A DNA stretch of 64,000 bases. Origin: Methanobacteriota archaeon (GTDB lineage: Archaea; Halobacteriota; Bog-38; Methanoflorentales; Methanoflorentaceae). Location of the stretch: positions 743,724 to 807,723 of the forward strand of contig OY969693.1 of assembly GCA_963701995.1 (NCBI GenBank), read 5' to 3'. The position numbers and the translations under genes were made by a program. Of the stretch, positions 26,809 through 62,248 are shown piece by piece (within the stretch, counting starts at the first letter, position 1; each line of letters starts with the position of its first letter). The notes under the pieces were generated by a model. That model was not told where the DNA came from, searched no databases, and saw only the letters and a program-made list of their open reading frames with translations.

Positions 26809-27331
26809 AGGTACCTCGGAAGTAGGCTAGTGCCGCGGCGCAAATAGCTTTCGTTTGACCGTCTCACCTTTCTCACTCGCAGTGATTTGAACCGGTCTCA
26901 ACTTCAGGCGAGCTGCTAGTTGGGAATGAGTAGGTGCTTCTGCGTCAAGCAGGCACATTGACCGCCGATCACTTCTGCGCCCGGTAACTTCGGTTGAGCA
27001 CCACGGTGACGCGAGAGGTGAAGTGGCTAATACTAGTGCAAACACAGTGACTATTTATGACTACACAGGAGCGCAAGCCAAAAGAGCCCAGTTTTGTCAC
27101 AGGCCAAGAAGCTCTAATATATGAAGTCGAACGGGCGTGTGGCCAATTAAACAAGCTTAAGGACTTGCAACTAGACGAGCCTTTTTTGCGTGCGGTGGCT
27201 GCGGAAATACGAGCGCACATGAACCACTTAGGGGCAAGCTTGCAGAGCTTAACGGAGCCTTGTGGCTAATGACTGTAGCTAAAACGGCTCGCGCTTGCCA
27301 AGGAGCCTCCTCGGCTTCAGCCCTGCTGCGA

Positions 27332-27601
27332 TCAACTCTCACGTCTGTCCGCGTCGCCTTGCCTACCAACAATCGTGCCCAGCACAAGGCGCTTACTTAG
27401 AGGGCTAAGATACGTGTGACGTCTTTCTTTTTCTTGCCCTTCTCGCTCCACATCCCTGAAGCACGAAACGAGCGCGTCGAGTGCCTGCGTATCATCTAGA
27501 CTAGCCTCGGACTTCTCATAAGCTTTTGTCTTGACCTCTGAAAGCGCGCGGCTCAATAGCTCCGCGTCGCTGCCCGTTAAGATTAGCCCACTTTCTATCA
27601 T
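27332..27601 (-). CDS. small-protein paralog A of a three-copy family (89 aa)
   Basis: MIESGLILTGSDAELLSRALSEVKTK...; AGGAGG Shine-Dalgarno motif upstream; paralogs at 44108 and 60516 share the leader. Confidence 0.5.
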   Translation of the reverse strand: MIESGLILTGSDAELLSRALSEVKTKAYEKSEASLDDTQALDALVSCFRDVEREGQEKERRHTYLSPLSKRLVLGTIVGRQGDADRRES

Positions 27602-27713
27602 CTTTCCCCTCCTGGTCGGTGATTTTTACATGAACTACGTGACATAATGCATGATCGCTTTGTTCTGACGCCGATATTAGCGCCAAAATGGCCTTCATTC
27701 GCCGTGAAGAGAG

Positions 27714-27857
27714 TTAAGCAAGCTTCAAAGGGTAAATGGCCACTGGGCTAGTCTCTGATGTAGCGCGGACGGCGTACTCCTCACAATACGAAACGCCCTC
27801 CCTATCGCCACGCTGCTTACAATGGGCGTACTTTTCGCACCTTTGGCAGTTCATCAT
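27714..27857 (-). CDS. Cys-rich mini-ORF (47 aa) inside repeat family R3
   Basis: MMNCQRCEKYAHCKQRGDREGVSYCEEY...; similar mini-ORFs at 32220-32327 and 31232-31303; coding status uncertain. Confidence 0.2.
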   Translation of the reverse strand: MMNCQRCEKYAHCKQRGDREGVSYCEEYAVRATSETSPVAIYPLKLA

Positions 27858-28070
27858 ATTTGCATTTCATGAATGGCAGAGTAAAGAAGCCTATCCGCGC
27901 GGGGGGAAACTAACCGGGCCAGAAATATCCGGCGATTTGTTCCTCCAACGCGCTTTGCATGTTATGTCTCCATGTGCGTAAGGGTCGCTCGCAAATTCAC
28001 CATCTAGTCGGGTAGGAAATCGTCAAAAGCCCTAATCTGCTTGCCATTGGAGGGCGCATAGACGTTATCC
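27761..28070. repeat. dispersed repeat family R3, copy 1 (about 310 bp)
   Basis: About 80-85% identical to 32234-32530; its 3' half recurs inverted at 58909-59045. Confidence 0.6.
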
Positions 28071-28231
28071 GCTTCTGAAACCTGCCAGACCGGCTTATGT
28101 GGTAGTCACAAAAATCAAATCAAAACGAGGAGGTACATGGCAGCCCAGCACTGTCAGAAGTATTTTAGTCGTGTCTAAAAGGAGCCTAGAGCAGAGAGTA
28201 TTAACAATAAGCATCATCAAGGACATTCAAT

Positions 28232-28687
28232 GTGAAAACATTGATTGTCTATGTTTCAATTCACCACCAGAACACGGAAAAAGTAGCAAAGGTGATGGCA
28301 GAAGTGCTGGGGGCGGACCTTGTCCCTATCGGTCAGGCGCAACCCGACACCCTCACGGCGTATGACCAGATCGGATTCGGATCAGGGATTTATTACATGA
28401 AGTTCCATAAGAGGCTCCTCCAGTTTGTGGAGGCGCTCCCGGCCGTCACGAGAAAACGGGCTTTTATCTTCTCTACGGGCGGTGAAGGGGAAATACAGAG
28501 GCATGCTGCTCTGAAAGAGCTGTTGATGAATCGAGGATTCTCCAACGTGGGCGATTTCTCCTGCAAGGGATGGGATACCTGGGGGCCTCTGAAACTTGTC
28601 GGGGGGACTAATAAGGGAAGACCAAATGCGGAAGATCTGGAGGAGGCGCGGGTATTTGCACGGGGATTGAAAGAAAAACATACATGA
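28232..28687 (+). CDS. flavodoxin-like protein
   Basis: 151 aa; MKTLIVYVSIHHQNTEKVAKVMAEVLGADL start typical of the flavodoxin fold; GTG start. Confidence 0.7.
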   Translation: MKTLIVYVSIHHQNTEKVAKVMAEVLGADLVPIGQAQPDTLTAYDQIGFGSGIYYMKFHKRLLQFVEALPAVTRKRAFIFSTGGEGEIQRHAALKELLMNRGFSNVGDFSCKGWDTWGPLKLVGGTNKGRPNAEDLEEARVFARGLKEKHT

Positions 28688-29977: not shown

Positions 29978-30057
29978 GCGCACTCACTACGCTAGGTCAA
30001 GGTGTCCAAGAATTACGACAGCCGCCCCCTTTGCTTGGATTTAATGTTGAATTGCTA
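29978..30057. repeat. 80-bp direct repeat, left copy, flanking the gene at 30172-30915
   Basis: GCGCACTCACTACGCTAGGTC...TTTAATGTTGAATTGCTA; about 88% identical to 30923-31002. Confidence 0.6.
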
Positions 30058-30171
30058 GAGGAAAACCCCATATGCCTCCTTACTTGTTGCCCAAAAACCT
30101 ACTTACTGCACATGCAAAATTACTGTGTTGGTTTTGCGGAGCGTGTTTCTCCTTCGTGATCTGTTTTTTCC

Positions 30172-30915
30172 TTGCGTATGCCTTATCCCCTTCCGTGCGC
30201 TACTCAATTTGATGATATTATGACCGACGAAAAGAAAGAAGAGAAGAGAATCGCCATGGAAGAACGACGCAAGCATCCCTTCGAGGCAACCGTTACGCCC
30301 GAGGTGCTCGAACGGGGGCGACACTGGATCACTGTCCGGCTGAGGAACGTATCAACGGAGCCCCTCGTCGACGTAAGCGCGACGCTGTATACCTATAACT
30401 CGCACGATCTCGACGTTTTGACAAGCGGCTCTTTTCATTTCGTGCAAGAGTTGCGCCCTCACGACATGGCAGCGCTCAACTTCCACGTTTTTGCGAACCA
30501 CACAGGATGGGTCTATCTGCACGTCACGGCGTACCGCGACGGTGCTTTCGTGAACTGGTACTCCCCCTATTATGAGGTTCGACTCGTTGAAGATCCCGCC
30601 GAGATCCAGACCTTCTTCGTGAATCGGCCCTACTGGGCCTATGAAGAAACAATCGAGACGGAAACGGTCGTGCACGCCCACCGCGACGTGCCGAATCTAC
30701 GGCTCGAAATCGCTGCAACTCCCCCGTCGAAATCCCACACGCTCATGGACGTAGTTGATATCGATTTCATCGCAGAAGGCGGCACGAAGCGATTCGTAAG
30801 CGAGCTTTACGCGAGTGAAGAAGGCATGTACCACCTCACAGCGCGCCTTTTTCACGATCAGAAGCTCATTAGCAGCAAGCTGGCATCCTGCTACGTTACG
30901 CCCCTTGAGGAGTGA
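30172..30915 (+). CDS. hypothetical protein (247 aa) bounded by 80-bp direct repeats
   Basis: Long ORF with typical composition; the true start may be the internal Met at 30217; no recognisable motif. Confidence 0.5.
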   Translation: MRMPYPLPCATQFDDIMTDEKKEEKRIAMEERRKHPFEATVTPEVLERGRHWITVRLRNVSTEPLVDVSATLYTYNSHDLDVLTSGSFHFVQELRPHDMAALNFHVFANHTGWVYLHVTAYRDGAFVNWYSPYYEVRLVEDPAEIQTFFVNRPYWAYEETIETETVVHAHRDVPNLRLEIAATPPSKSHTLMDVVDIDFIAEGGTKRFVSELYASEEGMYHLTARLFHDQKLISSKLASCYVTPLEE

Positions 30916-30922
30916 ATCTGCG

Positions 30923-31002
30923 GCGCACTCACTACGCTAGGTCGAGGTGTCCAAAAATTACGACAGCCTTCCCGCTTGCATGAATTTAATGTTGAATTGC
31001 TA
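30923..31002. repeat. 80-bp direct repeat, right copy
   Basis: Matches 29978-30057 in the same orientation. Confidence 0.6.
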
Positions 31003-31459
31003 ACGGGAATACGCCTATACGGTGGCCTAATTAAGGCACAAGCTAATTCAAGGCGTCGGTTTTGGTAGCAGAGCCACGAGGCGACAGAGCGCTGCGAGGG
31101 AAGCCGAGGGGCGTAGCGGTCTCTGTGTGCCGGAATACTTGGAATATTTGGAAGCTATAAAAAGGAGTTTTACTAGTTTTACCTCGCACTCAGCGGTCTT
31201 TCAAGCTTGCTGTTTACTGATCGGAATTTTCTTATTCTTTGTCCGCACAGAGGGGGTAAAATTGCCAACAGGCGTACTTCTCGCACCCTAGACAGCTCAT
31301 CATGTTAGTCTCTTTGGGCAGCAGCGGAAAGCACGTTACCGCGTCGCGAAAATAACTAGGTCGCCGATTTTTGGGTTTTTTCGTATGTGCGCCATACCGA
31401 AAGCTTTATTGTCGCTGCTACTGCGTTATTTGGCGTTTAGTGACGATTGATAACGACCG

Positions 31460-32170: not shown

Positions 32171-32233
32171 AATAGCACCCACTCATTTCGTTTACGATCC
32201 CCTTAGCTCGCCCTGCTAGTTAGTTTAGGATAA

Positions 32234-32530
32234 AGCGCGGACGGCGATATTCTTCGCAATACGGAACGTGCTCCCTATCGCCACGCAACCTACAATGGGC
32301 GTACTTCTCGCACCTTTGGCAGTTCATCACGGGCGCATTTCATGAGTGTAGCGTAAAGAGGGCTATCCACGCGGTGGGAAACTAACCGTCGCCAGGAATA
32401 CCAAAGTCAGCGCATCGGCGATTTATTCCTCCAACGCGCTTTGCATGCCATGTCTCATGTGTGTAGAGGTCGCTCCCAAATTCACCACCTAGACGGGCAG
32501 GAAATCGTCAAAAGCCGTAATCTGCTTGGG
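32234..32530. repeat. dispersed repeat family R3, copy 2
   Basis: Aligns with 27761-28070 in the same orientation; contains the mini-ORF MNCQRCEKYAHCRLRGDREHVPYCEEY on the minus strand (32220-32327). Confidence 0.6.
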
Positions 32531-32764
32531 GAGGGGGCACAAAAACGACTGGGCTCACGAGTGGTGAACGCGACGTGGTGCACTTGTGATTGTGAAAGAG
32601 CTGGGATCTACTGGGGTAGTAAGTCGACCGCGAAGCGCTCTCAAGGCTAACCGCATCAAAAGAGACGCAGCGACAAGTCTCTAATGGGAGATTAGGACGC
32701 AGCTCTATGAGCACGTGCGTAAGAAGATACGCACAGGAGTCTTTTTATAAGCGCCGCTGGAAAC

Positions 32765-33646
32765 GTGTTTGTTATGCATACCGGTTTTTGCAGATTCAAC
32801 GTCGGCCTCTTTGAGTGCATAGCGCTCAGTGATGGTTCTTTTACCTATCCTAGCCCGGGTCCGTTTCTCTTCGCCAACGCTCCTATCGAGGGTTTGCGAG
32901 CAAAGCTTCACGCGTATCACATTCAACCAGAGCAGTGGACAGAGTGGACAAGCCCATACACGTGCATTGCCGTTGACACTGGCACCCATCGTGCGCTCAT
33001 CGACACTGGCGGCGGGAGTCTCAGCCTTGATACGGGCCGCCTGCTGCAGAACCTTCACGCCGTGGGTATTGAGCCCGCGGAAATTGACGTAATCGTCATC
33101 AGCCACGCACATCCGGACCATCTCGGCGGTAATACCAGCACTAACGGAGAACCCATTTTCCCTAACGCACGCTTTGTCATTCACCGAGACGAATGGGATT
33201 TTTGGATGGGGATGCCCGACTTACGGGCACTGCAGACCGAGGACTTCGTCAAACGGCTGCTCGTCAACACCGCGCGCGCGAAGCTCGGAGCGATTGAGGG
33301 GCAGGTCGAACTCATTAACCGTGAAAAGGAGATCCTGCCCGGCATTCGGGCACTCGCCGCCCCGGGCCACACGCCGGGCCACATGGCTTTGGCCATATAC
33401 TCAAACGACAGGCAGCTGTTATGCCTCTCAGATACGGTGCTCCACCCCATCCATTTGGAGTCGCCTGAGTGGTACGCCGCCGTCGACCTCGATCCTGAGC
33501 AAACCGTCATCACACGTCACCGGCTCCTTGCGACGGCCGCAAACCAGAAATCGCTCGTCCACGCGTATCACTTCCCGTTTTCTGCGTTAGGACACATCGT
33601 CGCAAAGGGAGATGGATGGCAATGGCGCAGCTGGAAAGCAAAATAG
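32765..33646 (+). CDS. MBL-fold metallo-hydrolase
   Basis: 293 aa; HAHPDH metal-binding motif and downstream His/Asp ligands (PGHTPGH). Confidence 0.85.
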   Translation: MFVMHTGFCRFNVGLFECIALSDGSFTYPSPGPFLFANAPIEGLRAKLHAYHIQPEQWTEWTSPYTCIAVDTGTHRALIDTGGGSLSLDTGRLLQNLHAVGIEPAEIDVIVISHAHPDHLGGNTSTNGEPIFPNARFVIHRDEWDFWMGMPDLRALQTEDFVKRLLVNTARAKLGAIEGQVELINREKEILPGIRALAAPGHTPGHMALAIYSNDRQLLCLSDTVLHPIHLESPEWYAAVDLDPEQTVITRHRLLATAANQKSLVHAYHFPFSALGHIVAKGDGWQWRSWKAK

Positions 33647-42185: not shown

Positions 42186-42345
42186 TCGCTAGAAGCAACG
42201 GCAATATTTGGAAATGACCAGAACCTAATAAACGTTCTTCCCCCGTTCCTGTTTGGGCTTCTTTTCTTGACTATCATTGTAGGATTTGCGTTCGACCTTG
42301 AACTGACAAGTGCCGAAGGACTATCTAACGTCAGAATAAGCGGAT

Positions 42346-42390
42346 GACTAGCGCCAAAAAGCCTCAAAAGTACAAGCTTTATCCTGCGAA
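42346..42390. repeat. short dispersed repeat R5 (45 bp), copy 1
   Basis: GACTAGCGCCAAAAAGCCTCAAAAGTACAAGCTTTATCCTGCGAA; about 87% identical to 55202-55246. Confidence 0.5.
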
Positions 42391-43720: not shown

Positions 43721-43967
43721 CGTCTCAAGGGAAACCGCCGTAACGTACTAAATTTGTAATAAAGCTTCAAATAGGTTTTTTGGTTATACTATTGTTGCCT
43801 CGGTTTAGCATTTCTAAGGCTGTGAAACCGCTCCGGTTCCATGGGTCGATGCTTGGTCCAAATAAGTTCGTGTGACTTTTTTAGAAGTACGCGGGGTGGT
43901 TAACAGCCTTAGTTGCCTCTTGTTCTTCTTTCAACACCTAAACTCGCAGCTTACGATCATCGTAAGA
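43721..43967. repeat. repeat family R2, copy 1 (about 245 bp) directly upstream of the small-protein leader
   Basis: About 95% identical to 60127-60370; no frame-conserved ORF between copies; contains a 10-bp inverted repeat pair (43814-43829 and 43898-43912). Confidence 0.65.
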
Positions 43968-44107
43968 GTGCGGCCATTTACCTATTGAAGCTTGCTAAGT
44001 GCGCATAGATAGGAATAACGGGCGGTTTGACGCTATTATTGACGTCGAAAAAAGCGATCACGCTTAATGTCATGTGTTCATGTAAAAACACCGACCAGGA
44101 GGGAAAG

Positions 44108-44483
44108 GTGATTGAGAAGGGATTAATCTTAACGGGCAGCGACGCGGAGTTATTGAGCCAGGCGCTTGCGGAAGTCAAAACAAAAGTCTCTGAAGAGTCC
44201 GATGCTAGTTTAGATGATACTCAAGCACTGGATGCACTCGTTTCGTGTATTAGAAATGGGGAAAAAGAAGGACAGCAGAAAGAAGGACAGCAAGCGTCGT
44301 AGCCTCTTACGCAAGCGCCTTATCTTGGGCACGCTTCTCGATAGGCAAGGCCGCGCGGATGGAAAGAAACGCATACACTTCATCCAGAGCCCGGTGTCCT
44401 TGATTCTCGCACATTTCTTCTATTTTGGCCGTGCGAGCTCACTAAGTCCTCCTTTTTTTCAGCTGCGGCAAACCGCTAGATAA
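44108..44483 (+). pseudogene. small-protein paralog B, frameshifted
   Basis: GTG start after AGGAGGG; the first 64 codons match paralogs A and C, then TAG at 44300-44302, while the conserved C-terminal segment (LRKRLILGTLLDRQGRADG) continues in another frame. Confidence 0.4.
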
Positions 44484-49982: not shown

Positions 49983-51339
49983 TTCGGCTATTCGATGGTT
50001 GTAGACCAACCTGCGGCGATTGTCGACGCAAATTGCACGCGCCTCGCTTTTTTCTGCGTGCGCTTTTGCCTGATGGCGTTTTGAATCACGACGCCTCACA
50101 GCGGCGATCTTCCGTTTGAGCTCCACGGAATCTTCTTTATCGCGTCATTAGCAACGCGTTCTGCTCGCCATGCGAGACATGCTCATTTCAATGGAAGCAG
50201 CTGTTCGTTTTGCTTACGACGCAGAGCCTGAGCTTCATAAGCCGAGGTGTGAGTGCTGCGCCTGCAACTGAGCATCGTAAAACAGCTGATCGCACGATGC
50301 GTCGGGTTTATACGGCATTGCTCTCACCCCTCCGGCACGAGTTCGTAGTTCACGAGCACATTGTCCACAAACACGAAGCGCAGTAAACACCCGTACCGGT
50401 CGGTTTCAGAGACATCTTTGACAAGGGTAACGGTTTTGCTCGCATCCTGCTCTCAATCCCTTGCGGTGGCTTCAGGCCCAAGCCATTCTTTCTTCGTAGT
50501 ATCTTACGCGTGTCGATTCCAATGCACAGCACCTCGTATTTCGATCGCCTGCTCGGATAGGTTCCTGCCTTTCCGTAGATCTTATCACAAACGCTTCGGT
50601 CCGACCTTGCGTTTTTATGCGTGAAGCGAGCTGCACGCCCACGTCATAGTACTCGGCAAGCTCGTTTTCTGACGGCACGAAATACGTTTCCAGCTCTTGG
50701 AGCACCTCAAAGCCACAGGCTGAAACGGCTTTTGCGAGCTTCGCGGCCCCGCCGAAACCGACGGCTTGAGATATGAAGTGCATTAATTAAGGCACGCATG
50801 TGCATCCATATAGTGCAATGATGTCTTATATGGAACCATACGACTGAGACTATTTATGTGGCAAAAATCTGGAGAAGTTGACACAGCAGAAGAAGTGTGT
50901 ACTGACGGGTTTCCGTAATGTGAGTGAGGGATAAAATGATTAAATCTACCCATACATTGAAAGATTATAAAACTCTGGTTAAACTGATTACAGAATTGTG
51001 CGAGAAAGGAGCAAACCAAAGTGCCAAAGATAATCGTGACTCAGTGGACACCGCTGCTTCTTTTGCAAATGGGCGATATGTTGCCTACCTGGAAGTGTTA
51101 AATCTGATTGTTAATTATAAAAAAGAGGACAAAGAATGAACTGGGGCCGGACCAACTTAGAGAACGCCGCGCAGCGTGTTTTACCCTCTCCGTAGTTCCT
51201 AGCTCGTTGTTTCTTTTTAAGATTTAAAGGCTGCAGCATCGTCCGTTTCAGGAGTATGTCTGCACCACTTTATAGTGATAGGCCCCCAGATGCCCCTGCA
51301 ACGTGGTAAAGCCATAGTACGCCATCAATATGGTTCGTC

Positions 51340-51831
51340 ACGGTTGCAATTTGGAGCGCGATTCGTCGAGGTGTAGCAGGACCAAGAAATCAGTCCACAA
51401 ATCGACAAAAATTCAACCTCAGACCGTCAAAAGTGGGGGCTCTGGGCCAGGAGGGAGCCAGCGTGACAGCCCATGGCCCAGACGATCTGCTTCACCACTG
51501 CCCCCCAAAGGAGATAATACGTGGTGTTGCGGCACTAAAGACCCGCGAAGTAGCATAAACGTTTCCGGTGTTTGATGACGACTGGCGCAAAAACGCGTGC
51601 CGGGGCGAATGAAACACACGGAGATCCGCTCGGTCGAGGCATAAGGCGCTGCTATGAGTATGAGGTCAAACGCGTGAGGTGTCACGTCAACAGAACCTAC
51701 ATCTCTCCTGCAGCGGCCTTACGCGCGTTTACCAGTATTTTCTTTCCATATAAACGTAGGGAGCTCAGAGCGGGCGATCTCTTAAAAAATAACGCTCCAA
51801 AGCATTGTAAAACCTGCAATGGCTCCGAAAA
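51340..51831. repeat. composite repeat (degenerate R3 3' part + R4), copy 1
   Basis: 51397-51831 aligns with 59041-59526 at about 80% identity with indels; reading frames are not conserved between copies. Confidence 0.55.
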
Positions 51832-52562
51832 CACTGGTGCAAAATTGACGAGAGATTATGCGAACGGTCCGGTCTCGTCGCTGATGCTTAGTGGTCAGCA
51901 TCCGTTTGTTTCGAGCCGTGGCTCCGGAACCATCTAATGATACACTTGATATAGAGATGCTGATAAGAAGGTCACGCGATAAAGCGACAAAAGACTTTTT
52001 GTCGCCATCATACTAGTTTACGGAGAAAATTCGGGCTGATATCGGATGACCCAAGCCTGCCGGCCGTCCATGCAATGAACAAGTCAGCGATGGTGCTAAT
52101 GTCTGTGCGAGGTGAGGTGCGTTGGACGATAGCTTGCGCGACGCCGAAATTGCGTTGGATCTAGATAAGAACATCTGTCCGGCATGTGGCGTGGCGTATA
52201 CTGAAGAGACGAAGTTCTGTCAGAACTGCGGCAAAAGACTCGAGGTCGCCCCCGCTAAACGAGAGAGAAAATTTCTGCTCTGGCTGCGGCGCCTATTACG
52301 TCGAACACGCTGAAATTTGCCGCAGCTACAGAAAAGCATTTGCGCCTGCGCCTCGAGAAATCGGCCTACGTGCAAACGGTGAATTGGAAGATTGGCGCTT
52401 ATGCCACCTTATAACGATCCTTAAACCTGCACCACCATTTAAGTGTGAAAAAATGCAAAAATGGAGGGGGCTCCCGACAAAAAAATGGGAAATGCGTATT
52501 TACATCAATCAGAATGTTTTTTTGGCGCGCTCTCAAGCGCGTCGACAAGGAGTTGAAATACA

Positions 52563-52781
52563 ATGTGGGAAGATCCTGAAAGTGGACCAGGAATGCGACA
52601 CGGCATGGGAAAAGGAAGAGGGATGATGATGATGTGGGAGAAGCTCGACGACAACGCGAAGAAGATGCTCGCCACACGAATGCTTGATGAGCGCATCCTG
52701 AAGAAAGAACTTAAGATCAAGTACTTGGAGCACAAAGTCGAGACCCTAAAGATGATGAAAACGTGGATAGAAAAGATGTGA
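52563..52781 (+). CDS. small DUF5320-like protein
   Basis: 72 aa; Gly/Met-rich N-terminus (GPGMRHGMGKGRGMMMMWEK) followed by a charged helix. Confidence 0.3.
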   Translation: MWEDPESGPGMRHGMGKGRGMMMMWEKLDDNAKKMLATRMLDERILKKELKIKYLEHKVETLKMMKTWIEKM

Positions 52782-52926: not shown

Positions 52927-53598
52927 ATGGGAAGGCTTACTCAATACAGCGCGCCAAACCTTTCCGCCGAGGCTCAAGTTGACTCTGAGAACTGGAATCA
53001 GCAGCCGTCGGCCAGCATAGTGGCGCAGGCCGTCGAAAATATCCAACGGCGTGGCCTGGCAGTAGTTCGAGCACACAATGGCGAGATTGCGCTCGAAAGG
53101 CTCAAAGAGCTGATTCCGCCCGGAGCCGAGGTCATGAGTGGTGCCTCAACGACGTTGCTCGAGATTGGCTACGATGAATACGTTAACAGCGACAGATCAC
53201 GATGGAACGATCTCCATCGCGCTATCGTCGCAGAGAACGACGAAAAAAAGAGGCACGAGCTACGTAGAAAATCTATTACTGCTGATTACTTCGTCTCCGG
53301 CGTCAACGCCATCGCACAGTCAGGCGAAATTGTCGCGTGCGACGAGTCGGGGAGTCGCGTAGGGGCGTGGGCGTTTGCGGCGGATCACCTGATACTTGTC
53401 AGCGGCACGAACAAAATTGTCCCAACGCTTGGCGATGCATTGCGCCGCGTCCGTGAGTACGCGTATCCCCTAGAAAATGTCCGCGCGAAACGAGCGTACG
53501 GAACGCCAAGTCAGCTCGACAAGTGGGTGATTCTTGCAAATGAGGAAACTGAGGGCCGAGTGACCCTCATACTCATCGACGAGTCGCTCGGATATTGA
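52927..53598 (+). CDS. LUD-domain (lactate-utilisation LutC-like, DUF162) protein
   Basis: 223 aa; ADYFVSGVNAIAQSGEIV and ADHLILVSGTNKIVPTL segments typical of the LUD fold. Confidence 0.7.
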   Translation: MGRLTQYSAPNLSAEAQVDSENWNQQPSASIVAQAVENIQRRGLAVVRAHNGEIALERLKELIPPGAEVMSGASTTLLEIGYDEYVNSDRSRWNDLHRAIVAENDEKKRHELRRKSITADYFVSGVNAIAQSGEIVACDESGSRVGAWAFAADHLILVSGTNKIVPTLGDALRRVREYAYPLENVRAKRAYGTPSQLDKWVILANEETEGRVTLILIDESLGY

Positions 53599-55063: not shown

Positions 55064-55201
55064 CGTCACCCGTCCTTTGCCGCGTTCATAGCTCGCCTAC
55101 TCAAGGCCACAATGACCTGTTGCGCGATACTACTGGCACGCATCATCAGCTCAACCAGTTGGCGAAGCGGAGTCCTTATTGTATCCTCTCAGCTGTCTCG
55201 T

Positions 55202-55246
55202 GACTAGCGCCAAAACGCCTCAAAATTAGAAGCTTTAGCCTGCGAA
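55202..55246. repeat. short dispersed repeat R5, copy 2
   Basis: Matches 42346-42390. Confidence 0.5.
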
Positions 55247-56169: not shown

Positions 56170-56604
56170 CTAAAGAGAACCAAAAGTTACAATGATCCAT
56201 TCCCTTATCTCGTCACGCACGCGCCTAAAAGACGTGCACGGTGCACTTTCAGGCCCCGCGTCTAAGACAGGATCGTCAAAGGCGTGATGGATGTACTCGG
56301 TCCCTCCGGGGATAATGGCTCCGGGGAAAATGGGGCATCTCTCTTGGGCGTCAGCACACATGGTCACGACGTAGTCGAAGGATCCGTCGAGATACTCGTC
56401 GAGCGGCTTTGCGTGCTGTGAGGCAATGTCGATGCCCTCCTCTGCCATCACTTCGATAGCGCACAAGTGCATTTCGGTCGGTTCGCTGCCGGCGCTGTAT
56501 GCTTCGTAACGATCACCGTAACGCGCGTTGACGAACCCTTCGGCCATCTGTGAGCGCGCCGCATTGTGCGTGCAAAGGAACAAGATCCTTTTTTTCGCGT
56601 TCAT
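56170..56604 (-). CDS. arsC: arsenate reductase (LMW-PTP / thioredoxin-coupled ArsC family)
   Basis: Start at the internal Met (MNAKKRILFLCTHNAARSQMAEG); P-loop CTHNAARS and downstream catalytic Cys. The track ORF extends to 56892, probably spuriously. Confidence 0.85.
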   Translation of the reverse strand: MNAKKRILFLCTHNAARSQMAEGFVNARYGDRYEAYSAGSEPTEMHLCAIEVMAEEGIDIASQHAKPLDEYLDGSFDYVVTMCADAQERCPIFPGAIIPGGTEYIHHAFDDPVLDAGPESAPCTSFRRVRDEIREWIIVTFGSL

Positions 56605-56887
56605 CTTCTTAGAACCCTCCAAAAACAGAGTGCCGAATCCATTCTTGTAAGAAGATACAGCATCTGGTTCATAACCACATCCTATAGTTTTTCTATATCG
56701 TGGGTGCACCCTGCACGACCCGTTTAGCGGCCGAACCCTATTACCTTTGCACGCGCTACCTCTGAACTTGGCCCGTAGATCAAAGCAAATCGAAGAAAGA
56801 TGCAGTCTCAGTCTTATTGCCTCTGATATTGCCGCTTTATCCGGTAACTTGCTGCGCTTAAATCGCACCAAAAAGACTTCCGAGCTG

Positions 56888-57000
56888 ACCATTTACCCTT
56901 TGAAGCTTGTTTAGAGCATGCCTCAAAGAATAACGGCCATTTTAACGCTAATATTGGCTCAGAAAAAAGCGATCGTGAATTACGCTTCTTGGGAATAGAA
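56888..57000. repeat. solo copy of the small-protein leader (no downstream paralog gene)
   Basis: GACCATTTACCCTTTGAAGCTTG...AACGGCCATTTTAACGCTAATATT aligns with the leaders at 27602-27747, 43968-44107 and 60371-60515. Confidence 0.5.
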
Positions 57001-57085
57001 CCCCCGCATCCAGCTCGCGACAGGTTTTCTCTGATGGTTGTGGCGTAAGCATAGCTTCCACTGCGATGGTGTTGATTGCTTTCAA

Positions 57086-57259
57086 CTACGCTCGCTCTAG
57101 ATAAAATTCTACTAAAAACCGAATAACGTCATCCTGCGTGCATTGCCTTTTTTTCGCTGCTTGCAGCTCGTAGAGCAACTCGACTAGCATATCGCGTGTC
57201 TCAACGCTGACGTTGAGGCTTGTGCGTTCCTCGCTTTTCGCCATTTCATTTTCGTTCAT
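57086..57259 (-). CDS. ribbon-helix-helix (CopG/Arc-like) small DNA-binding protein (57 aa)
   Basis: Hand translation MNENEMAKSEERTSLNVSVETRDMLVELLYELQAAKKRQCTQDDVIRFLVEFYLERA shows a beta-strand then two helices; below the track cut-off. Confidence 0.35.
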   Translation of the reverse strand: MNENEMAKSEERTSLNVSVETRDMLVELLYELQAAKKRQCTQDDVIRFLVEFYLERA

Positions 57260-57367
57260 GATGCACGTGGTAGCAAGAAAGTATGCCGCGCTTTGTGCGG
57301 TTACTGGAGTCTAGTTTGTTGCTTTACTTTGGCTAGAAATATGTATCCGCGAAGGCTCTGTGGTTGA

Positions 57368-57679
57368 CTCTCGCATTCTCCGGCAGCCGCCAAGCTGAAG
57401 GAGAGCGAGCAGAAATATCGCACTCTTGTGGAGACCGCACATAGCATAATCTGCACCGTCGATCCAGCAGGCATAATCACATTCATCAACGATTATGGCG
57501 CAACATTCTTTGGCTACACGCGGGAAGAGCTTGTGGGAGAGGACATCATGGTCATAATCCCAGACATCGAGAGTTCCGGCCGACAATTCACGCCGCTTAT
57601 CCGCGATATTTTATCCTACCCAGATCGGCACGCAGTGAGCTTGAACGAGAACTTCACCAAGGATGGGAGACGCGTATAG
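57368..57679 (+). pseudogene. isolated PAS-domain fragment (likely sensor-kinase remnant)
   Basis: Open frame KESEQKYRTLVETAHSIICTVDPAGIITFINDYGATFFGYTREELVGEDIMVIIPD is a PAS S-box with no transmitter or output domain following. Confidence 0.4.
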
Positions 57680-57985
57680 AATCTTCAGTACCAGATAGGC
57701 GGCGGCGCTCGCATCGTAAATGGAGATCTAAGGAAATTTTGCGAGCAGCAATCCGATCTACTACAGTCGGATCAATCAAACAAGAATTACATATTAACCA
57801 AACGGTGTCCCACGGTGTGAACGGGGTGGATTGGCGATTTTACAAGAGTCCGAGGCCAGAGCCGGTATATGATATTTACATGCAGGTACTGGGCACCGGC
57901 AAGCTTTGATTCTTAAGCTATTTGATTAAAATGTGCTAAGGTATTAACTCTAGCGAAGCGCGAGAGAGCTTGGGGGAAATAGAAA

Positions 57986-58471
57986 ATGACTACGTTTAGC
58001 GCTGGCATTCTTTTATTCAGGTTCAAGAATGAGAAACTTGAAGTGATGCTTGTTCACCCAGGTGGGCCATTTTGGGCAAATAAGGACGATGGCGTGTGGT
58101 CGATACCTAAAGGGCTGCCCGAAGAGAATGAAAATCCCCTGGACACGGCAAGAAGAGAATTTAAAGAAGAAACAGGATTTGAAGTTGATGGCGAGTTTAT
58201 TGATTTGGGAGAGTTAAATCAATCCAGCGTAAAGATAGTACACGTATGGGCTCTGGAAAAAGATCTCGATATAGCGAATATTGTGAGTAATACGATTATT
58301 TATGAGTGGCCAAAAAACTCCGGGAAACTACAGGAGATTCCTGAGGCCGACAAAGCTGGTTGGTTCGATATTGAGCTAGGTAAGAGAAAAATCATAAAAG
58401 GACAAATCGGTTTTATTAATAAACTAATAGAGGTTATTAATCACTCTAAGAAAGAAAAGCATACTGGTTAA
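57986..58471 (+). CDS. NUDIX hydrolase
   Basis: 161 aa; Nudix box GLPEENENPLDTARREFKEETGF; lies in a low-GC segment. Confidence 0.85.
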   Translation: MTTFSAGILLFRFKNEKLEVMLVHPGGPFWANKDDGVWSIPKGLPEENENPLDTARREFKEETGFEVDGEFIDLGELNQSSVKIVHVWALEKDLDIANIVSNTIIYEWPKNSGKLQEIPEADKAGWFDIELGKRKIIKGQIGFINKLIEVINHSKKEKHTG

Positions 58472-58908
58472 GGATAGACTCGACTTTATGACATCTTTTC
58501 ACACGGTCTCGTCTCAACCAGTCTATCCGCTTGGAAATATGGAAAGTAAGCTACTTGATCGTCACTCGCGTTTTCTTTTCTATTTCAGTAGGCTCCTTCT
58601 TTGGCAAATTAAGCTCAAGCACTCCGTTCTTAAACGACGCTTGTGCCTTGTCCGGCAACACGTCGGCAGGCAGGTCAAGCGCACGTCGGTATGACGCATA
58701 GCCGCGTTCGCGCCCGTCACAGCCACCATCGAGACGAGCACGATGGTGGCCATGGCGATACTTAACATACTAATTTTGTATTTCATCAAATACACCTTGC
58801 TTCCGTTGGCGGGTTTTGCAATGTGCGAGGACACCATCCATGCATACCCGCCCGGCAAAGGGGTTCGTTCCTAAATTGCGTACCTATACGATTCTTAGTA
58901 ATAAAGGT

Positions 58909-59526
58909 TGGTTAACGCCTGTGCGCTCTCCAATGGCAAGCAGATCACGCATTTTGACCTTGGCCTGCTTGTCTAGGTGGTGAATTTGGGAGCGACCCCT
59001 ACACACACGGGAGATATACCATGCAAAGCGCGTTGGAGGAACAAATCGACCAAAATTCAACCTCAGACCGTCAAAACTGGGGGCTCTGGGCCAGGAGTGA
59101 CAGCTCATGACCCAAAGCGATTTGCTTCACCACTGCCACCTAAGGAGATAATCCGTGGTGTTGCAGAAGGCAAAGACTCATGAAGCAGCATAAATGTTTC
59201 CGACATTTGGTAACGAACGCAAAAACGTGCGCTGCAGGGGGGGATTACACAAGATTCGGGCGCCGTGGGGAGCATAAGGCGCTGATGAACATGAGGTCAA
59301 GCGCGTGCATCATCACGTAGACCGTCTGTGGCAGGCACCTCGAAGCGACGCCAGTCGGGTCAAGCGTGCGGCATCACGTAAAGGAACCTACATCTCCCGC
59401 TACAGCGCCTTATGCGCGTTTTTCTGGTTATTTCCTTTGAATATAAACGTGGGTAGCTCCGAGCGGGCGCTCTTTTGAAAAATAACGCTCTAAAGCGATT
59501 TAATACCTGCAATGGCTCCGAAAAAA
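58909..59526. repeat. composite repeat (inverted R3 3' part + R4), copy 2
   Basis: 58909-59045 is the reverse complement of the R3 3' half; 59041-59526 aligns with 51397-51831 and has an internal duplication of about 50 nt. Confidence 0.55.
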
Positions 59527-59710
59527 CGGTAGAGCTTTAAGGAGAGAATAAGCGAATGTGCTATACCAACGACCGGTTAGTTCTACCACGCGCATAGCCC
59601 CCTATGCAACTTTTTGCCAATGTTTTCTTTGGAAGCTTCAAGTAGTACAAGGGTTTGTCACAAATGTTTAAGTCGCCCACTGTTAGAGCATTCAACAAGG
59701 AGATGACGCA

Positions 59711-60010
59711 GTGACCAAGTTCTTTATCCAGTGGCGAGTCAACGCAGAAAAGGTGCTTGATACAGCAGGGAAACTGCATCTGACGATGCTCGAAATAGTC
59801 AAGGCTGAACTGAGCGCCGGAAGGCTTATTGAATGGAGACAGTTCAACAACGGAGCGAACGGCTATGCCATTGCCGAAGCGAGCGAAGATGCCGTTTTCA
59901 CTACCATGGTCAGGTGGATGCCAGCTATCTCGTTTAAAGCCGTCCCAGTGCATAGTGTCGACCAATCGATAAAAACATTAAAGAAAGCAGCTGCAGCGAA
60001 GCAGGCCTAG
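59711..60010 (+). CDS. small conserved protein (DUF3303-like)
   Basis: 99 aa; GTG start after AGGAG; MTKFFIQWRVNAEK...GYAIAEASEDAVFTTMVRW pattern. Confidence 0.45.
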   Translation: MTKFFIQWRVNAEKVLDTAGKLHLTMLEIVKAELSAGRLIEWRQFNNGANGYAIAEASEDAVFTTMVRWMPAISFKAVPVHSVDQSIKTLKKAAAAKQA

Positions 60011-60126
60011 TAACTGCTCTTTTTATCAGCTGCCGCTCACGAGTAGGCCAGCAAAACGAACTTTGGAAGTGCCGGAGCCGAGCTTGCGTTCAAGGCGTGC
60101 ACAGATCCGAATCTATGCTAACTTAT

Positions 60127-60370
60127 CGTCTCGAGGGAAACCGCCGTAACCTACTAAATTTGTAATAAAGCTTCAAATAGGTTTTTTGGTTATACTATTG
60201 TTGCCTCGGTTAGCATTTCTAAGGCTGTGAAACCGCTCCGGGCATGGGCCGATGCTTGGTCCAAATAAGTCCGTGTGACTTTTTTAGAAGTACGCGGGGT
60301 GGTTAACAGCCTTAGTTGCCTCTTGTTCTTTTTTTAACACCTAAACTCGCAGCTTACGGTCAGCGTCAGG
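60127..60370. repeat. repeat family R2, copy 2
   Basis: About 95% identical to 43721-43967 and, like it, placed directly 5' of the conserved leader. Confidence 0.65.
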
Positions 60371-60515
60371 GTGCGGCCATTTACCTTTTGAAGCTTGCTT
60401 AACGCTCTTCGCGGTGAATAACGGCCATTTTGACGCTAATATCAGCGTCAGAACAAAGCGATCATGCATTATGTAAGGTGGCGCACACAAAAAGTACCGA
60501 TAAAGGAGGAAAAAA

Positions 60516-60800
60516 ATGATTGAAAGCGGACTAATTTTAACCGGCAGCGACGCGGAGCTATTGAGCCGTGCGCTTTCAGAAGTCAAAACAAAAGTCTATG
60601 AGGAGTCCGAGACGAGTCTAGATGATACCCAAGCACTCGATGCACTCCTTTCGAGTTTCAGAACTGCGGAGACCGAAGAACGGGCAAAAGAACGAAGTCA
60701 CGCGTATCTTAGCCCCTTGGGTAAGCGCCTTATGCTTGGCACGATTATCCATAGGCAAGGCGGCGCGGACGGCCATAAGAGCGGCTCGCAGCAGAGCTAA
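60516..60800 (+). CDS. small-protein paralog C (94 aa), apparently intact
   Basis: MIESGLILTGSDAELLSRALSEVKTKVYEESETSLDDTQALDALLSSF...; AAAGGAGG 8 nt upstream. Confidence 0.55.
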   Translation: MIESGLILTGSDAELLSRALSEVKTKVYEESETSLDDTQALDALLSSFRTAETEERAKERSHAYLSPLGKRLMLGTIIHRQGGADGHKSGSQQS

Positions 60801-61441: not shown

Positions 61442-62248
61442 TCACACTAAATCTTTAAGCGCATCCAACAAAGCCTTTCGCTCGACTGAGCCCGTCGGAG
61501 ATATGTAGAAATCAACGCCACGACCTCTTCCACGCCCTTTTCGTTCAACTTCAACATAACCGTACAACTCCAATTCAGCAGTGAGTTCGGAAAGGGTCTT
61601 GTGCGAGACCTGTTCACGTCCGTTAAGCCTCATAATATTGTTAAATTCCCTATAAACCTCAGTTGGCGACTGCTTTTCCTCTTTACTGTATACGGTTTCT
61701 AGCAACACCTTCTGATGTGGTGAGAGACGTACCACTTCTCTGCGTAACAACGACACTTCTGCAAGTCGTTCCGCACGACGCACATCCTCTTCTGCAACAG
61801 TCGTTCGCCCTTCTTCTTCACAAAGGTCAGCAGCAGTTGATAGCAAATCAAGCGCATATCGGGCATCGCCGTTTCTCTGTGCCGCTAATGCAGCGCATAA
61901 CGGAATCACTTCATCGCTCAGCGCATTCGGATAAAACGCCTGTTCAACGCGATACTCCAGAATATCCCTTAACTGAGGCGCGTCATAAGCCGGAAAAGTA
62001 ACATCTACATATACATACGATGACTGGTCACGGGCGTCGGTGATTAGTGTAGGGAAGTCATATTTGTTCGTGATCCCGATAAGACAGATGTTAGAATCTC
62101 GCGTGAACTTGTAGATGGGGCTATATTCGTCTTTTCTGTTCTTAATGAGCATTTTGTCTATCTCATCGAGAATAATGATCGCAATATTCCCTTTGACCTT
62201 CTGTTCGATTTTTGTCCAGTACTCGTTAGTTTTAACCGGTTGCTTGTT
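61442..62248 (-). pseudogene. orc1: Orc1/Cdc6 replication-initiator gene remnant lacking the Walker A region
   Basis: Open frame includes Walker B IAIIILDEID, FPAYDAPQLRDILEYRVEQAF, CAALAAQRNGDARYALDLL and the C-terminal winged helix; upstream it stops at TGA (62249-62251), the preceding PYRV-like segment is in another frame, and no GxxGxGKT motif is found. Confidence 0.7.

What the first reader, a model, noticed from the sequence alone, without database searches (positions are those of the whole stretch)
58909..59526. Repeat families R3 and R4 forming mosaic composites at four sites
R3 (about 300 bp) is present at 27761-28070 and 32234-32530, with a degenerate piece at about 31232-31380. Its 3' half recurs inverted at 58909-59045, fused to a 435-490-bp element R4 (59041-59526) that also occurs at 51397-51831. 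Identity is about 80% with indels and an internal 50-nt duplication in one R4 copy, so the copies are diverging. Together with R1 and R2, the 27-33 kb and 51-61 kb regions are built from reshuffled modules, which points to repeated recombination or decaying mobile DNA rather than ordinary intergenic sequence.
Basis: seen in the sequence. Interest (0 to 1): 0.55.

Follow-up and report, generated by a model that had tools for sequence, protein, structure and literature searches.

The report
Reshuffled mini-gene and non-coding modules
The repeats are real but do not look like transposons: one family is an unannotated 36-amino-acid cysteine-rich gene with its upstream region, the other is a conserved non-coding element, and recombination has cut and rejoined copies of both in the genome of a peat-dwelling archaeon.

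Summary
R3 lies at 27741-28079 (+), 32211-32547 (+) and 58910-59050 (-), with a weak piece at 31266-31357. R4 lies at 51381-51899 and 59021-59598. An independent assembly reproduces the R3c/R4b junction.

The modules really are shuffled, both within this genome and between related peat 'Halobacteriota' genomes. I found no sign of mobile DNA: no terminal inverted repeats, no target duplications, no transposase or integrase.

The 5' half of R3, read on the opposite strand, is an unannotated 36-aa four-cysteine gene (MMNCQRCEKYAHC..PYCEEYRRPR). It is intact at 32220-32330, frameshifted at 27714-27857 and diverged at 31232-31303. Synonymous changes outnumber non-synonymous ones against most intact homologues. 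The 3' half of R3 (module A) is that gene's upstream flank.

R4 has no conserved ORF and no Rfam match. R4a sits at the same syntenic position in two related lineages and is more conserved than neutral sites. It has an invariant TATA-like box and a ~30-bp hairpin, so it is a candidate promoter/ncRNA element.

A and R4b are joined inside an 8-nt microhomology (ACAAATCG). The next 57 nt are 96% identical between the R4 copies, against 75% for the core. This points to recent homology-facilitated illegitimate recombination.

Interest is moderate to low.

The parts
58910..59050 (-). Module A, copy c (the 3' half of R3, inverted). Non-coding, about 81% identical to copies a and b. Its inner end is joined to R4b within ACAAATCG (59041-59048).
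59041..59097 (.). Block M, copy b. A 57-nt block at the left edge of R4, 96% identical to 51397-51455 and absent from the R4 orthologues of related genomes. On the - strand it reads as a small hairpin followed by T4 runs.
59098..59598 (.). R4b core, a diverged paralogue of R4a (75% identity). It contains the 13-bp perfect hairpin arms 59272-59284 / 59403-59415, a 60-nt insertion with a duplicated 25-nt motif (59295, 59358), the TATA-like box 59440-59448, and the invariant 19-mer CCTGCAATGGCTCCGAAAA at 59506.
51397..51455 (.). Block M, copy a. It begins with ACAAATCG. The 167 nt upstream (51230-51396) show no significant similarity to module A.
51456..51864 (.). R4a core. A conserved non-coding element with no ORF shared by the four versions. 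It is orthologous in L054-L059 and L060-L062. TATA-like box at 51747-51755; hairpin arms at 51639-51651 / 51710-51724.
27930..28079 (+). Module A, copy a (3' half of R3a). It lies between the mini-gene (- strand) and a flavodoxin-like gene (28232-28687, +).
27714..27857 (-). Four-cysteine mini-gene, frameshifted copy (5' half of R3a read on the - strand). Product: MMNCQRCEKYAHCKQRGDREGVSYCEEYAVRATSE... The original C-terminus RRPRYIRD* is still readable in another frame.
32396..32547 (+). Module A, copy b (3' half of R3b). It lies between the mini-gene (-) and a metallo-beta-lactamase-fold gene (32765-33646, +).
32220..32330 (-). Four-cysteine mini-gene, intact copy (36 codons). Product: (V/M)MNCQRCEKYAHCRLRGDREHVPYCEEYRRPRFILN*.
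31232..31303 (-). Diverged 23-codon paralogue of the mini-gene (MMSCLGCEKYACWQFYPLCADKE*).
58554..58712 (-). Remnant of an hsp20 gene (last 53 codons; 94% aa identity to the L054-group gene, 81% to the L060 gene). Homology to relatives stops at 58712, the left breakpoint of the segment that carries A and R4b.

Best explanation
The segment 58909-59598 is a chimeric intergenic region produced by recombination between paralogous chromosomal modules. It is not a transposable element.

Module A (58910-59050) is a copy of the roughly 140-bp upstream flank that, at 27.9 kb and 32.4 kb, lies next to an unannotated 36-aa four-cysteine mini-gene on the opposite strand. R3 is that mini-gene plus its flank.

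R4b is an old, diverged paralogue of R4a. R4a is a discrete, roughly 400-nt conserved non-coding element that related species keep at the same syntenic position upstream of a zinc-ribbon mini-gene and a LUD-domain gene.

Inferred: R4 carries a promoter (an invariant TATA-like box) and is transcribed into a non-coding RNA or leader. The transcript is more likely on the - strand, beginning at a roughly 30-bp imperfect hairpin and ending at T-runs just beyond the left edge of the core.

Inferred: the A|R4b junction arose by homology-facilitated illegitimate recombination. One crossover lay in the R4a/R4b homology, which copied the 57-nt block M from one R4 copy to the other. The other crossover lay in the 8-nt microhomology ACAAATCG, which A-type and M-type sequences share.

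Shown: the repeats, the mini-gene, R4 orthology and constraint, the microhomology and the identity step.

Inferred: transcription, strand, and the order and mechanism of events.
For: Repeats and composite. An independent assembly, L011, reproduces the junction at 99.95% identity.

Mini-gene:
- The reverse strand of R3 encodes MMNCQRCEKYAHC[KR]LRGDRE..PYCEEYRRPR.., with intact 36-codon versions in the window (32220-32330) and in L038, L044, L045 and L050.
- The intact window copy versus L050 shows 8 synonymous against 3 non-synonymous codon changes, with differences by codon position of 4/1/9. In the more diverged copies (L038 11359, L045 9440), AAC>AAT, TGC>TGT, CAA>CAG and AGG>CGG are silent at N3, C4, Q5 and R6.
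- A search of 1.84 billion representative proteins finds only 9 hits, among them a 36-aa and a 54-aa protein that keep C4, C7, C13 and C25.

R4:
- No ORF is kept in frame across the four versions.
- R4a is syntenic in L054-L059 and L060-L062.
- Core identity is 87.2% to L060, against 76.7% for the adjacent spacer and 77-78% for third codon positions of neighbouring genes. To L054 it is 89.8% against 84-86%.
- Both flanks of the core are non-homologous or neutral. The TATA-like box and hairpin arms are invariant in all four versions.
- Among variable hairpin positions, 5 keep G.U only on the - strand and 1 only on the + strand.
- The three non-homologous left flanks each carry T5-T6 on the - strand.

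Recombination:
- Block M is 96% identical between the R4 copies against 75% for the core, and it is absent from the orthologues.
- ACAAATCG is present in R3a (27933-27940, reverse strand), at the start of M in R4a (51397) and at the junction (59041).
- Synteny breakpoints with relatives fall at module edges.

Against mobility: no TIRs, no TSDs, no transposase, integrase or PHROG signal, and no Rfam family.
Against: There are no expression data, so transcription, strand and RNA ends are inferences.

RNAalifold finds no covariation support for a global R4 fold on either strand (covariation terms +5.6 and +4.7 kcal/mol). The strand asymmetry of 5:1 is weak (p about 0.1) and partly circular. Hairpin-plus-T-rich sites also sit at the right edge on the + strand. 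Folding z-scores are modest (-0.85 to -3.15).

R4 is known from only four distinct sequences, all in a narrow lineage. L063, L064 and L065 lack it.

An 8-nt microhomology plus one identity step is compatible with other histories. A-M-R4 could be ancestral, or M could be a small element inserted twice.

The function of module A is unknown. It shows no conserved structure. The ATG it contains ('MQSALEEQI') is not conserved in L044.

The whole genome could not be searched, so genome-wide copy numbers are unknown.
Confidence: 0.6

Rival explanations
1. R3 and R4 are non-autonomous mobile elements (MITE-like), or debris of an integrated element, that have inserted at several sites and are now decaying.
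For: There are multiple dispersed copies at about 75-81% identity in both orientations. The modules occur in different contexts in related genomes. A truncated Orc1/Cdc6 gene lies nearby (61442-62152), and a related locus carries a primase-polymerase gene downstream (L060). R4 contains an internal segment bounded by 13-bp perfect inverted repeats.
Against: No TIRs bound R3, R4 or the composite. There are no flanking direct repeats. No transposase, integrase or PHROG hit was found, and there is nothing in the viral or plasmid collections. Copy boundaries differ from copy to copy. R4a is orthologous and constrained in two other lineages. The R3 boundary coincides with the stop codon of a selected mini-gene.
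Confidence: 0.12
2. R4 is the long 5' flank or leader of small heat-shock (hsp20) genes and was co-duplicated with hsp20. The two copies in the window are leftovers after both hsp20 genes were broken. On this reading R4 acts in cis on hsp20 expression, as a heat-responsive leader or upstream control region.
For: In L060-L062 a full-length hsp20 gene (7690-8172, -) lies directly downstream of R4 on the - strand. In the window an hsp20 remnant (58554-58712, -) lies about 330 nt beyond R4b in the same orientation. The hsp20 paralogues are 76% identical at the DNA level, similar to the 72-75% identity of the R4 paralogues. The first 12 codons of hsp20 and its proximal promoter have been moved to 30164-30255.
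Against: R4a is conserved at 89.8% between the window and the L054 group, although neither has hsp20 next to it. The L054-group hsp20, orthologous to the window remnant, has no R4 upstream. In L060 a hairpin plus T6 separates R4 from the hsp20 promoter region. The association rests on a single lineage.
Confidence: 0.2
3. R4 is the decayed remains of a duplicated protein-coding gene (a pair of pseudogenes).
For: It is 400-500 bp long and has many indels between the copies. ORFs of 80-120 codons exist in R4a.
Against: No reading frame is shared by the four versions. Indels are not multiples of three. Mismatches show no 3-nt periodicity (43/43/42). Orthologues carry stops in every frame. Yet the core is more conserved than neutral sites, which decaying pseudogenes would not be.
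Confidence: 0.05

Closest known systems
Putative mobile promoters / promoter propagation (Matus-Garcia et al. 2012, PMC3488235)
   Same: A homologous non-coding stretch (module A, 140 bp, about 81% identical) lies upstream of non-homologous downstream sequences: a flavodoxin-like gene, an MBL-fold gene and a chimeric ORF in one orientation, and the mini-gene or R4 in the other. Copies are moved by recombination, with no transposase.
   Different: That paper's operational window (-50 to -150 from the start codon) is not met for two of the three copies, because A ends 153, 218 and 124 nt upstream. In two copies the adjacent mini-gene was duplicated together with A, and the paper's filter excludes whole-unit duplications. 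No promoter activity has been shown.
Archaeal zinc-finger micro-proteins (Haloferax C(P)XCG proteins, PMC6562870 and PMC11241148; Halobacterium Brz, PMC2253796)
   Same: It is a very small (36 aa), cysteine-rich, unannotated or barely annotated archaeal protein encoded in an 'intergenic' region next to other genes.
   Different: It has only one CxxC knuckle. The other two cysteines are spaced C-x11-C, so there are no C(P)XCG motifs. There is no sequence similarity to any Pfam family. The family is confined to a few peat metagenome lineages. Zinc binding and function are untested, and the AlphaFold model is of low confidence (pLDDT 64).
Homology-facilitated illegitimate recombination (for example PMC3240628)
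   Same: One end of the exchanged tract lies in extended homology (the R4a/R4b core). The other lies in a microhomology of a few nucleotides (ACAAATCG). The result is a sharp step in identity, 96% against 75%.
   Different: HFIR was described for incoming linear DNA in bacteria. Here it is inferred, not observed, for intrachromosomal exchange in an archaeon.
Bacterial interspersed mosaic elements / REP-type intergenic repeats (from my own knowledge of E. coli BIMEs)
   Same: Intergenic repeats are assembled as mosaics of a few module types, in both orientations.
   Different: BIME modules are 20-40-bp palindromic units present in hundreds of copies. Here the modules are 60-400 bp with two to four copies in 64 kb, one is protein-coding, and there is no palindromic unit structure.
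5'-UTR RNA thermometers of small heat-shock genes (ROSE-like elements; from my own knowledge)
   Same: In one related lineage, a conserved structured non-coding sequence lies upstream of an hsp20-family gene.
   Different: R4 is about four times longer and is separated from hsp20 by a T-run and the proximal promoter. It persists without hsp20 in two genomes. No Rfam thermometer family matches.

Membership tests
MITE / IS-type transposable element | Terminal inverted repeats at the element ends | tested here: not met
   An inverted-repeat search around all four sites found none at the ends. It found only an internal 13-bp hairpin in R4.
MITE / IS-type transposable element | Target-site duplication flanking each copy | tested here: not met
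   No shared 6-mer lies within 25 nt of the paired boundaries of R3a, R3b, R4a or the composite. For comparison, 121 of 300 random site pairs share one by chance. The boundaries are somewhat fuzzy.
MITE / IS-type transposable element | A transposase or integrase in the element or in a parent element | tested here: not met
   Pfam and PHROGs scans of the ORFs in 27-37 kb and 50-64 kb gave no transposase or integrase. The rest of the genome could not be searched.
MITE / IS-type transposable element | Presence/absence polymorphism with constant ends between related genomes | tested here: not met
   R4a is fixed at the same syntenic site in two other lineages. The left limit of homology differs between them. 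R3 pieces of different extent occur in relatives.
Known RNA families (Rfam 15: rRNA, RNase P, SRP, riboswitches, thermometers, sRNAs) | Covariance-model score at or above the gathering threshold | tested here: not met
   There were no hits in the whole window at the gathering threshold. There were none at E<=10 in 58800-59700. Only two chance-level hits appeared in 27200-28250.
Structured non-coding RNA (generic) | Conserved secondary structure supported by compensatory changes | tested here: inconclusive
   Only four sequences are available. The covariation terms are positive on both strands. Only the central hairpin is kept, with a weak bias towards G.U pairs on the - strand.
Putative mobile promoters (PMC3488235) | At least 50 nt at 80% identity or more, lying within -50 to -150 of the start codons of non-homologous genes, with non-homologous upstream genes | tested here: not met
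   The identity and length criteria are met and the downstream genes are unrelated. However, A ends 153 and 218 nt upstream of two of them, and the mini-gene on the other side is homologous in two copies.
Zinc-finger micro-proteins (C(P)XCG type) | Fewer than 70 aa, with two C(P)XCG motifs | tested here: not met
   The protein is 36 aa. Its pattern is C-x2-C-x5-C-x11-C, with one CxxC and no CPxCG. The size criterion is met; the motif criterion is not.
Zinc-finger micro-proteins (C(P)XCG type) | Zinc binding | not testable with these tools
   The AlphaFold model has low confidence (pLDDT 64). It shows a beta-hairpin after the CxxC knuckle.
Type I toxin-antitoxin repeat loci (LDR/Sib-like) | A conserved short hydrophobic toxin ORF with an overlapping antisense RNA | tested here: not met
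   No ORF is conserved in R4. The R3 mini-protein is charged and cysteine-rich, not hydrophobic.
Protein-coding gene (R3 5' half, reverse strand) | An open frame kept across homologues, with an excess of synonymous changes | tested here: met
   Intact 36-codon ORFs occur in five loci. The intact window copy versus L050 shows 8 synonymous against 3 non-synonymous changes. Against L038 and L044 the counts are 6:5 and 7:5. Third-position changes dominate in comparisons with L050. Homologous predicted proteins of 36 and 54 aa exist.

The most novel reading that the evidence does not exclude
R4 is a new, lineage-specific regulatory RNA locus. It would be a bidirectional TATA-centred promoter producing a roughly 300-nt - strand RNA that begins with a long hairpin, tied to stress genes (hsp20, zinc-ribbon and LUD genes). 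The 36-aa Cys4 mini-protein would be a new multi-copy micro-protein family. Its cassettes, together with R4, would mark recombination hot spots that rewire the promoters of stress-related genes in peat methanogen-related archaea.
Probability: 0.3. Interest if true: 0.5.

Novelty: new member of a known kind. Interest (0 to 1): 0.35.

Why it matters
Three things follow.

First, apparent 'repeat junk' in an uncultured peat archaeon resolves into an unannotated micro-protein gene family and a constrained non-coding element. Gene callers and Rfam miss both.

Second, the junction gives a clean sequence footprint of microhomology-assisted recombination between paralogous intergenic regions in an archaeal chromosome. 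This is a route to promoter or leader exchange that needs no mobile elements.

Third, the mini-protein and R4 are concrete targets for peat metatranscriptomes and metaproteomes.

None of this overturns current understanding. It adds members to known categories.

Tried and rejected
- The genome-contig scan with an R4 18-mer returned only nine chance hits in unrelated bacteria. The source genome is not in that collection, so genome-wide copy number could not be obtained.
- Viral-contig scans with R3 and R4 words gave nothing. Plasmid BLAST gave nothing.
- Rfam at gathering and at E<=10 gave nothing meaningful.
- The 'MQSALEEQI' ORF that starts in module A is rejected. It hits a stop after 7 codons in R3b and after 16 in R3a, its ATG is absent in L044/L045, and in L020 it merely runs antisense to a membrane-protein gene.
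- A conserved small ORF in R4 is rejected.
- The idea that 51230-51396 is a degenerate module A (which would make A-M-R4 ancestral) is rejected. Local alignment scores are no better than shuffles, z <= 1.1.
- The idea that R4b is the native upstream region of the NUDIX-adjacent hsp20 is not supported. The L054-group orthologue has no R4-like sequence upstream.
- RNAalifold on module A, both strands, found no supported structure.
- The bacterial-type promoter/terminator scan is uninformative for an archaeon.
- LUD-gene neighbours in L063, L064 and L065 have different contexts and no R4.
- AlphaFold of the mini-protein gave too low a confidence to justify a fold search.

Full report
**Context.** The window has 52.7% G+C and no tRNA or Rfam match. 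It carries ordinary chromosomal genes: uvrABC, class II fumarase, a succinate dehydrogenase/fumarate reductase-like pair (assigned by eye from the translations), and a thioredoxin-domain protein. There is also a truncated archaeal Orc1/Cdc6 gene at 61442-62152. Exact protein look-ups place it on a 2,115,296-bp NCBI contig. Close relatives are named 'MAG... [Halobacteriota archaeon]', and related contigs come from peat and wetland metagenomes. The regions at 27-33 kb and 51-61 kb have low coding density by standard ORF calling.

- Profile searches set the limits. R3a is at 27741-28079 (+) and R3b at 32211-32547 (+). R3c is at 58910-59050 (-) and covers the 3' 140 nt only. A weak piece lies at 31266-31357. 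R4a is at 51381-51899 and R4b at 59021-59598.
- R4b has a 60-nt insertion carrying a second copy of a 25-nt motif.
- An independently assembled Logan contig (L011) reproduces window 56477-60181 at 99.95%, so the R3c/R4b fusion is not a mis-assembly of this record.
- One correction: identity along R4 is not uniform (see the junction section below).

**What R3 is.** Read on the opposite strand, the 5' half of R3 is a 36-codon ORF, MMNCQRCEKYAHC[K/R]LRGDRE..PYCEEYRRPR... 
- It is intact at window 32220-32330 (-) and in the related loci L038, L044, L045 and L050.
- It is frameshifted by a 1-nt deletion at 27714-27857 (-), where the original C-terminus is still readable in another frame.
- Between the intact window copy and L050 there are 8 synonymous and 3 non-synonymous codon differences, distributed 4/1/9 over the codon positions. 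In the more diverged copies, N3, C4, Q5 and R6 are kept through silent changes, including AGG>CGG.
- An exhaustive HMMER search of 1.84 billion representative proteins finds only nine hits. Among them are a 36-aa and a 54-aa protein with the same four cysteines, plus several frameshift fusions.
- Pfam has no model for it. The AlphaFold model is of low confidence (pLDDT 64) and shows a beta-hairpin after the CxxC knuckle.

So R3 is a lineage-specific micro-protein gene plus its upstream flank, which I call module A (the 3' half of R3). In each window copy the mini-gene is divergent from a + strand gene: flavodoxin-like at 28232, DUF998 at 31460 and MBL-fold at 32765. Module A contains an SD-like motif and an ATG ('MQSALEEQI'). 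That ORF is interrupted in both full R3 copies and its ATG is missing in L044, so it is not a gene. Module A shows no supported RNA structure. Its function is unknown.

**What R4 is.** 
- No reading frame is shared by the copies, indels are not multiples of three, and mismatches show no periodicity. Rfam finds nothing even at E<=10.
- Contigs carrying orthologues of the LUD-domain gene (52927-53598) show that R4a is vertically inherited. In the L054-L059 group and in L060-L062 an R4 sequence lies at the same place, upstream of the zinc-ribbon mini-gene (window 52122-52313) and the LUD gene.
- The core (window 51476-51864) is 87.2% identical to L060. The spacer just downstream is 76.7% identical, and third codon positions of the two neighbouring genes are 77-78%. 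Against L054 the figures are 89.8% for the core and 84-86% for third positions.
- To the left of the core, the three lineages have unrelated sequences.
- R4 is therefore a discrete, constrained, non-coding element.
- All four versions keep a TATA-like box (GTTTATAT[T/G] on the - strand; window 51747-51755 and 59440-59448). They also keep a long imperfect hairpin whose outer arms are a perfect 13-mer in R4b (59272-59284 / 59403-59415).
- A start about 24 nt downstream of the box on the - strand would fall on the first base of the hairpin (read directly from the sequence).
- Among variable hairpin positions, five keep G.U pairing only on the - strand and one only on the + strand. The three non-homologous left flanks each have a T5-T6 run on the - strand within about 60 nt.
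- These features favour a - strand RNA of about 300 nt, but the evidence is weak. RNAalifold gives no covariation support on either strand. Folding z-scores are modest. Hairpin-plus-T-rich sites also occur at the right edge on the + strand.
- R4 was not found in three further related contexts (L063-L065).

**The junction.** Homology between R3a/b and R3c ends, and homology between R4a and R4b begins, within ACAAATCG.
- R3a reads ..GGAGGAACAAATCG|CCGG.
- R4a reads ..CAGTCCACAAATCG|ACAAAAATTC.
- The composite reads ..GGAGGAACAAATCG|ACCAAAATTC.

The 57 nt that follow (block M, 51397-51455 / 59041-59097) are 96% identical between the two R4 copies, against 75% for the core. Block M is absent from the R4 orthologues of L054 and L060. 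The 167 nt upstream of M at R4a are not a degenerate module A. The simplest reading has two steps. R4a and R4b are old paralogues. A recent exchange then copied M from one to the other, with one crossover in the R4 homology and the other in the 8-nt microhomology with an A-type sequence. That is homology-facilitated illegitimate recombination (concept: PMC3240628). The direction and order of events cannot be resolved.

**Shuffling on a larger scale.** Relatives carry the same modules in other orders. These are R1-5', R1-3' with its 89-94-aa ORF, the mini-gene, parts of A, and a 67-aa ORF module at 50926-51229.
- Synteny with L054 stops at 58712, inside an hsp20 gene of which only the last 53 codons remain in the window. 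The A-R4b segment starts about 200 nt beyond that point.
- In L060 a full hsp20 gene lies directly next to R4.
- In the window, the first 12 codons and the proximal promoter of that hsp20 are fused to another gene at 30164-30255.
- This suggests a link between R4 and hsp20. However, R4a is conserved without hsp20 in two genomes, and the L054-group hsp20 has no R4 upstream. I therefore rank 'hsp20 leader' as a rival rather than the main reading.

**Mobile DNA?** No evidence was found:
- no terminal inverted repeats;
- no flanking direct repeats;
- no transposase, integrase or phage-family protein in the two regions;
- no hit in viral contigs or plasmids.

Copy ends also vary from copy to copy. 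The truncated Orc1/Cdc6 gene, and a primase-polymerase gene in a relative's flank, suggest that a degraded integrated element may lie beyond 60.9 kb. R3 and R4 do not behave as parts of it.

**Comparison with what is known.**
- Module A behaves like the 'putative mobile promoters' of Matus-Garcia et al. (PMC3488235) but fails their positional definition.
- The mini-protein resembles archaeal zinc-finger micro-proteins (PMC6562870, PMC11241148, PMC2253796) in size and cysteine content. It lacks their C(P)XCG motifs.
- R4 is an unclassified candidate ncRNA or regulatory element.
- The mosaic habit recalls BIMEs only superficially.

**Verdict.** The feature is a new member of known kinds: paralogous small-gene cassettes and conserved non-coding elements rearranged by recombination. 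Interest is 0.35. The main limits are that only four R4 sequences are available, there are no expression data, and the rest of the genome could not be searched.

Noticed in passing
window 43727-43975 and 60134-60378; also L020 2196-2442, L037 3004-3378 (-), L038 7235-7470, L044 11932-12166, L054 8023-8235: The 5' part of repeat R1 (about 240 nt) is nearly invariant across seven loci from several genomes. It contains a 10-bp long-range stem (CTAAGGCTGT / ACAGCCTTAG) that encloses further helices, and two T6 runs. It has no Rfam match and may be an unclassified ncRNA or a terminator/promoter cassette.
   Followed up: partly
window 60516-60800 (+), 27332-27601 (-), about 44100-44302 (+, truncated): The 3' part of R1 encodes a paralogous 89-94-aa protein (MIESGLILTGSDAELLSRALSEVKTK...). 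It has an SD-like motif and no Pfam or PHROG match, and the exact product is not on record as a called gene.
   Followed up: partly
window 50924-51139 (+): A 67-71-aa ORF (MIKSTHTLKDYKTLVKL...) just upstream of R4a belongs to a narrow family of 28 clusters, all from peat or wetland metagenomes and one 'Halobacteriota' MAG. In relatives it sits next to ferritin, rubrerythrin, cupredoxin and glutathione-peroxidase genes.
   Followed up: partly
window 58554-58712 (-) and 30164-30255 (+): An hsp20 gene is broken into pieces. Its last 53 codons survive at 58.6 kb. The first 12 codons (MTDEKKEEKRIA) with the proximal promoter are fused in frame to a 219-aa gene at 30.2 kb. In L060 these pieces form an intact hsp20 plus downstream gene pair.
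   Followed up: yes
window 58713-58858 (-): A signal-peptide-like ORF start (MKYKISMLSIAMATIVLVSMVAVTGANAA) runs out of frame into the hsp20 remnant. It is probably a chimeric gene fragment created by the same rearrangement.
   Followed up: no
window 52122-52313 (+) and 52563-52781 (+): Two small genes lie between R4a and the LUD gene. One is a 63-aa zinc-ribbon protein (Pfam Zn_Ribbon_1) under clear purifying selection, with identity by codon position of 96.9/98.4/81.2% against L060. The other is a conserved 72-aa ORF with no family.
   Followed up: partly
window 29978-30073 and 30923-31018: A 96-nt direct repeat (84% identical) brackets the 30172-30915 gene.
   Followed up: no
window 61442-62152 (-): This is an Orc1/Cdc6 gene lacking its N-terminal ATPase part. 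Its protein cluster holds many further truncated variants from other assemblies. A relative (L060) has a WHD_Cdc6 fragment and a primase-polymerase gene nearby, which suggests a degraded integrated element.
   Followed up: no
window 42345-42390 and 55201-55246: A 46-nt repeat is 91% identical between the two sites. The second copy ends exactly where synteny with the L054 group stops (55246).
   Followed up: no
L054 12914-13016: A weak additional match (E 0.001) to the left part of the R4 profile lies between the PsbP-like gene and the NUDIX gene of the related genome. It may be a third, degenerate R4 copy.
   Followed up: no
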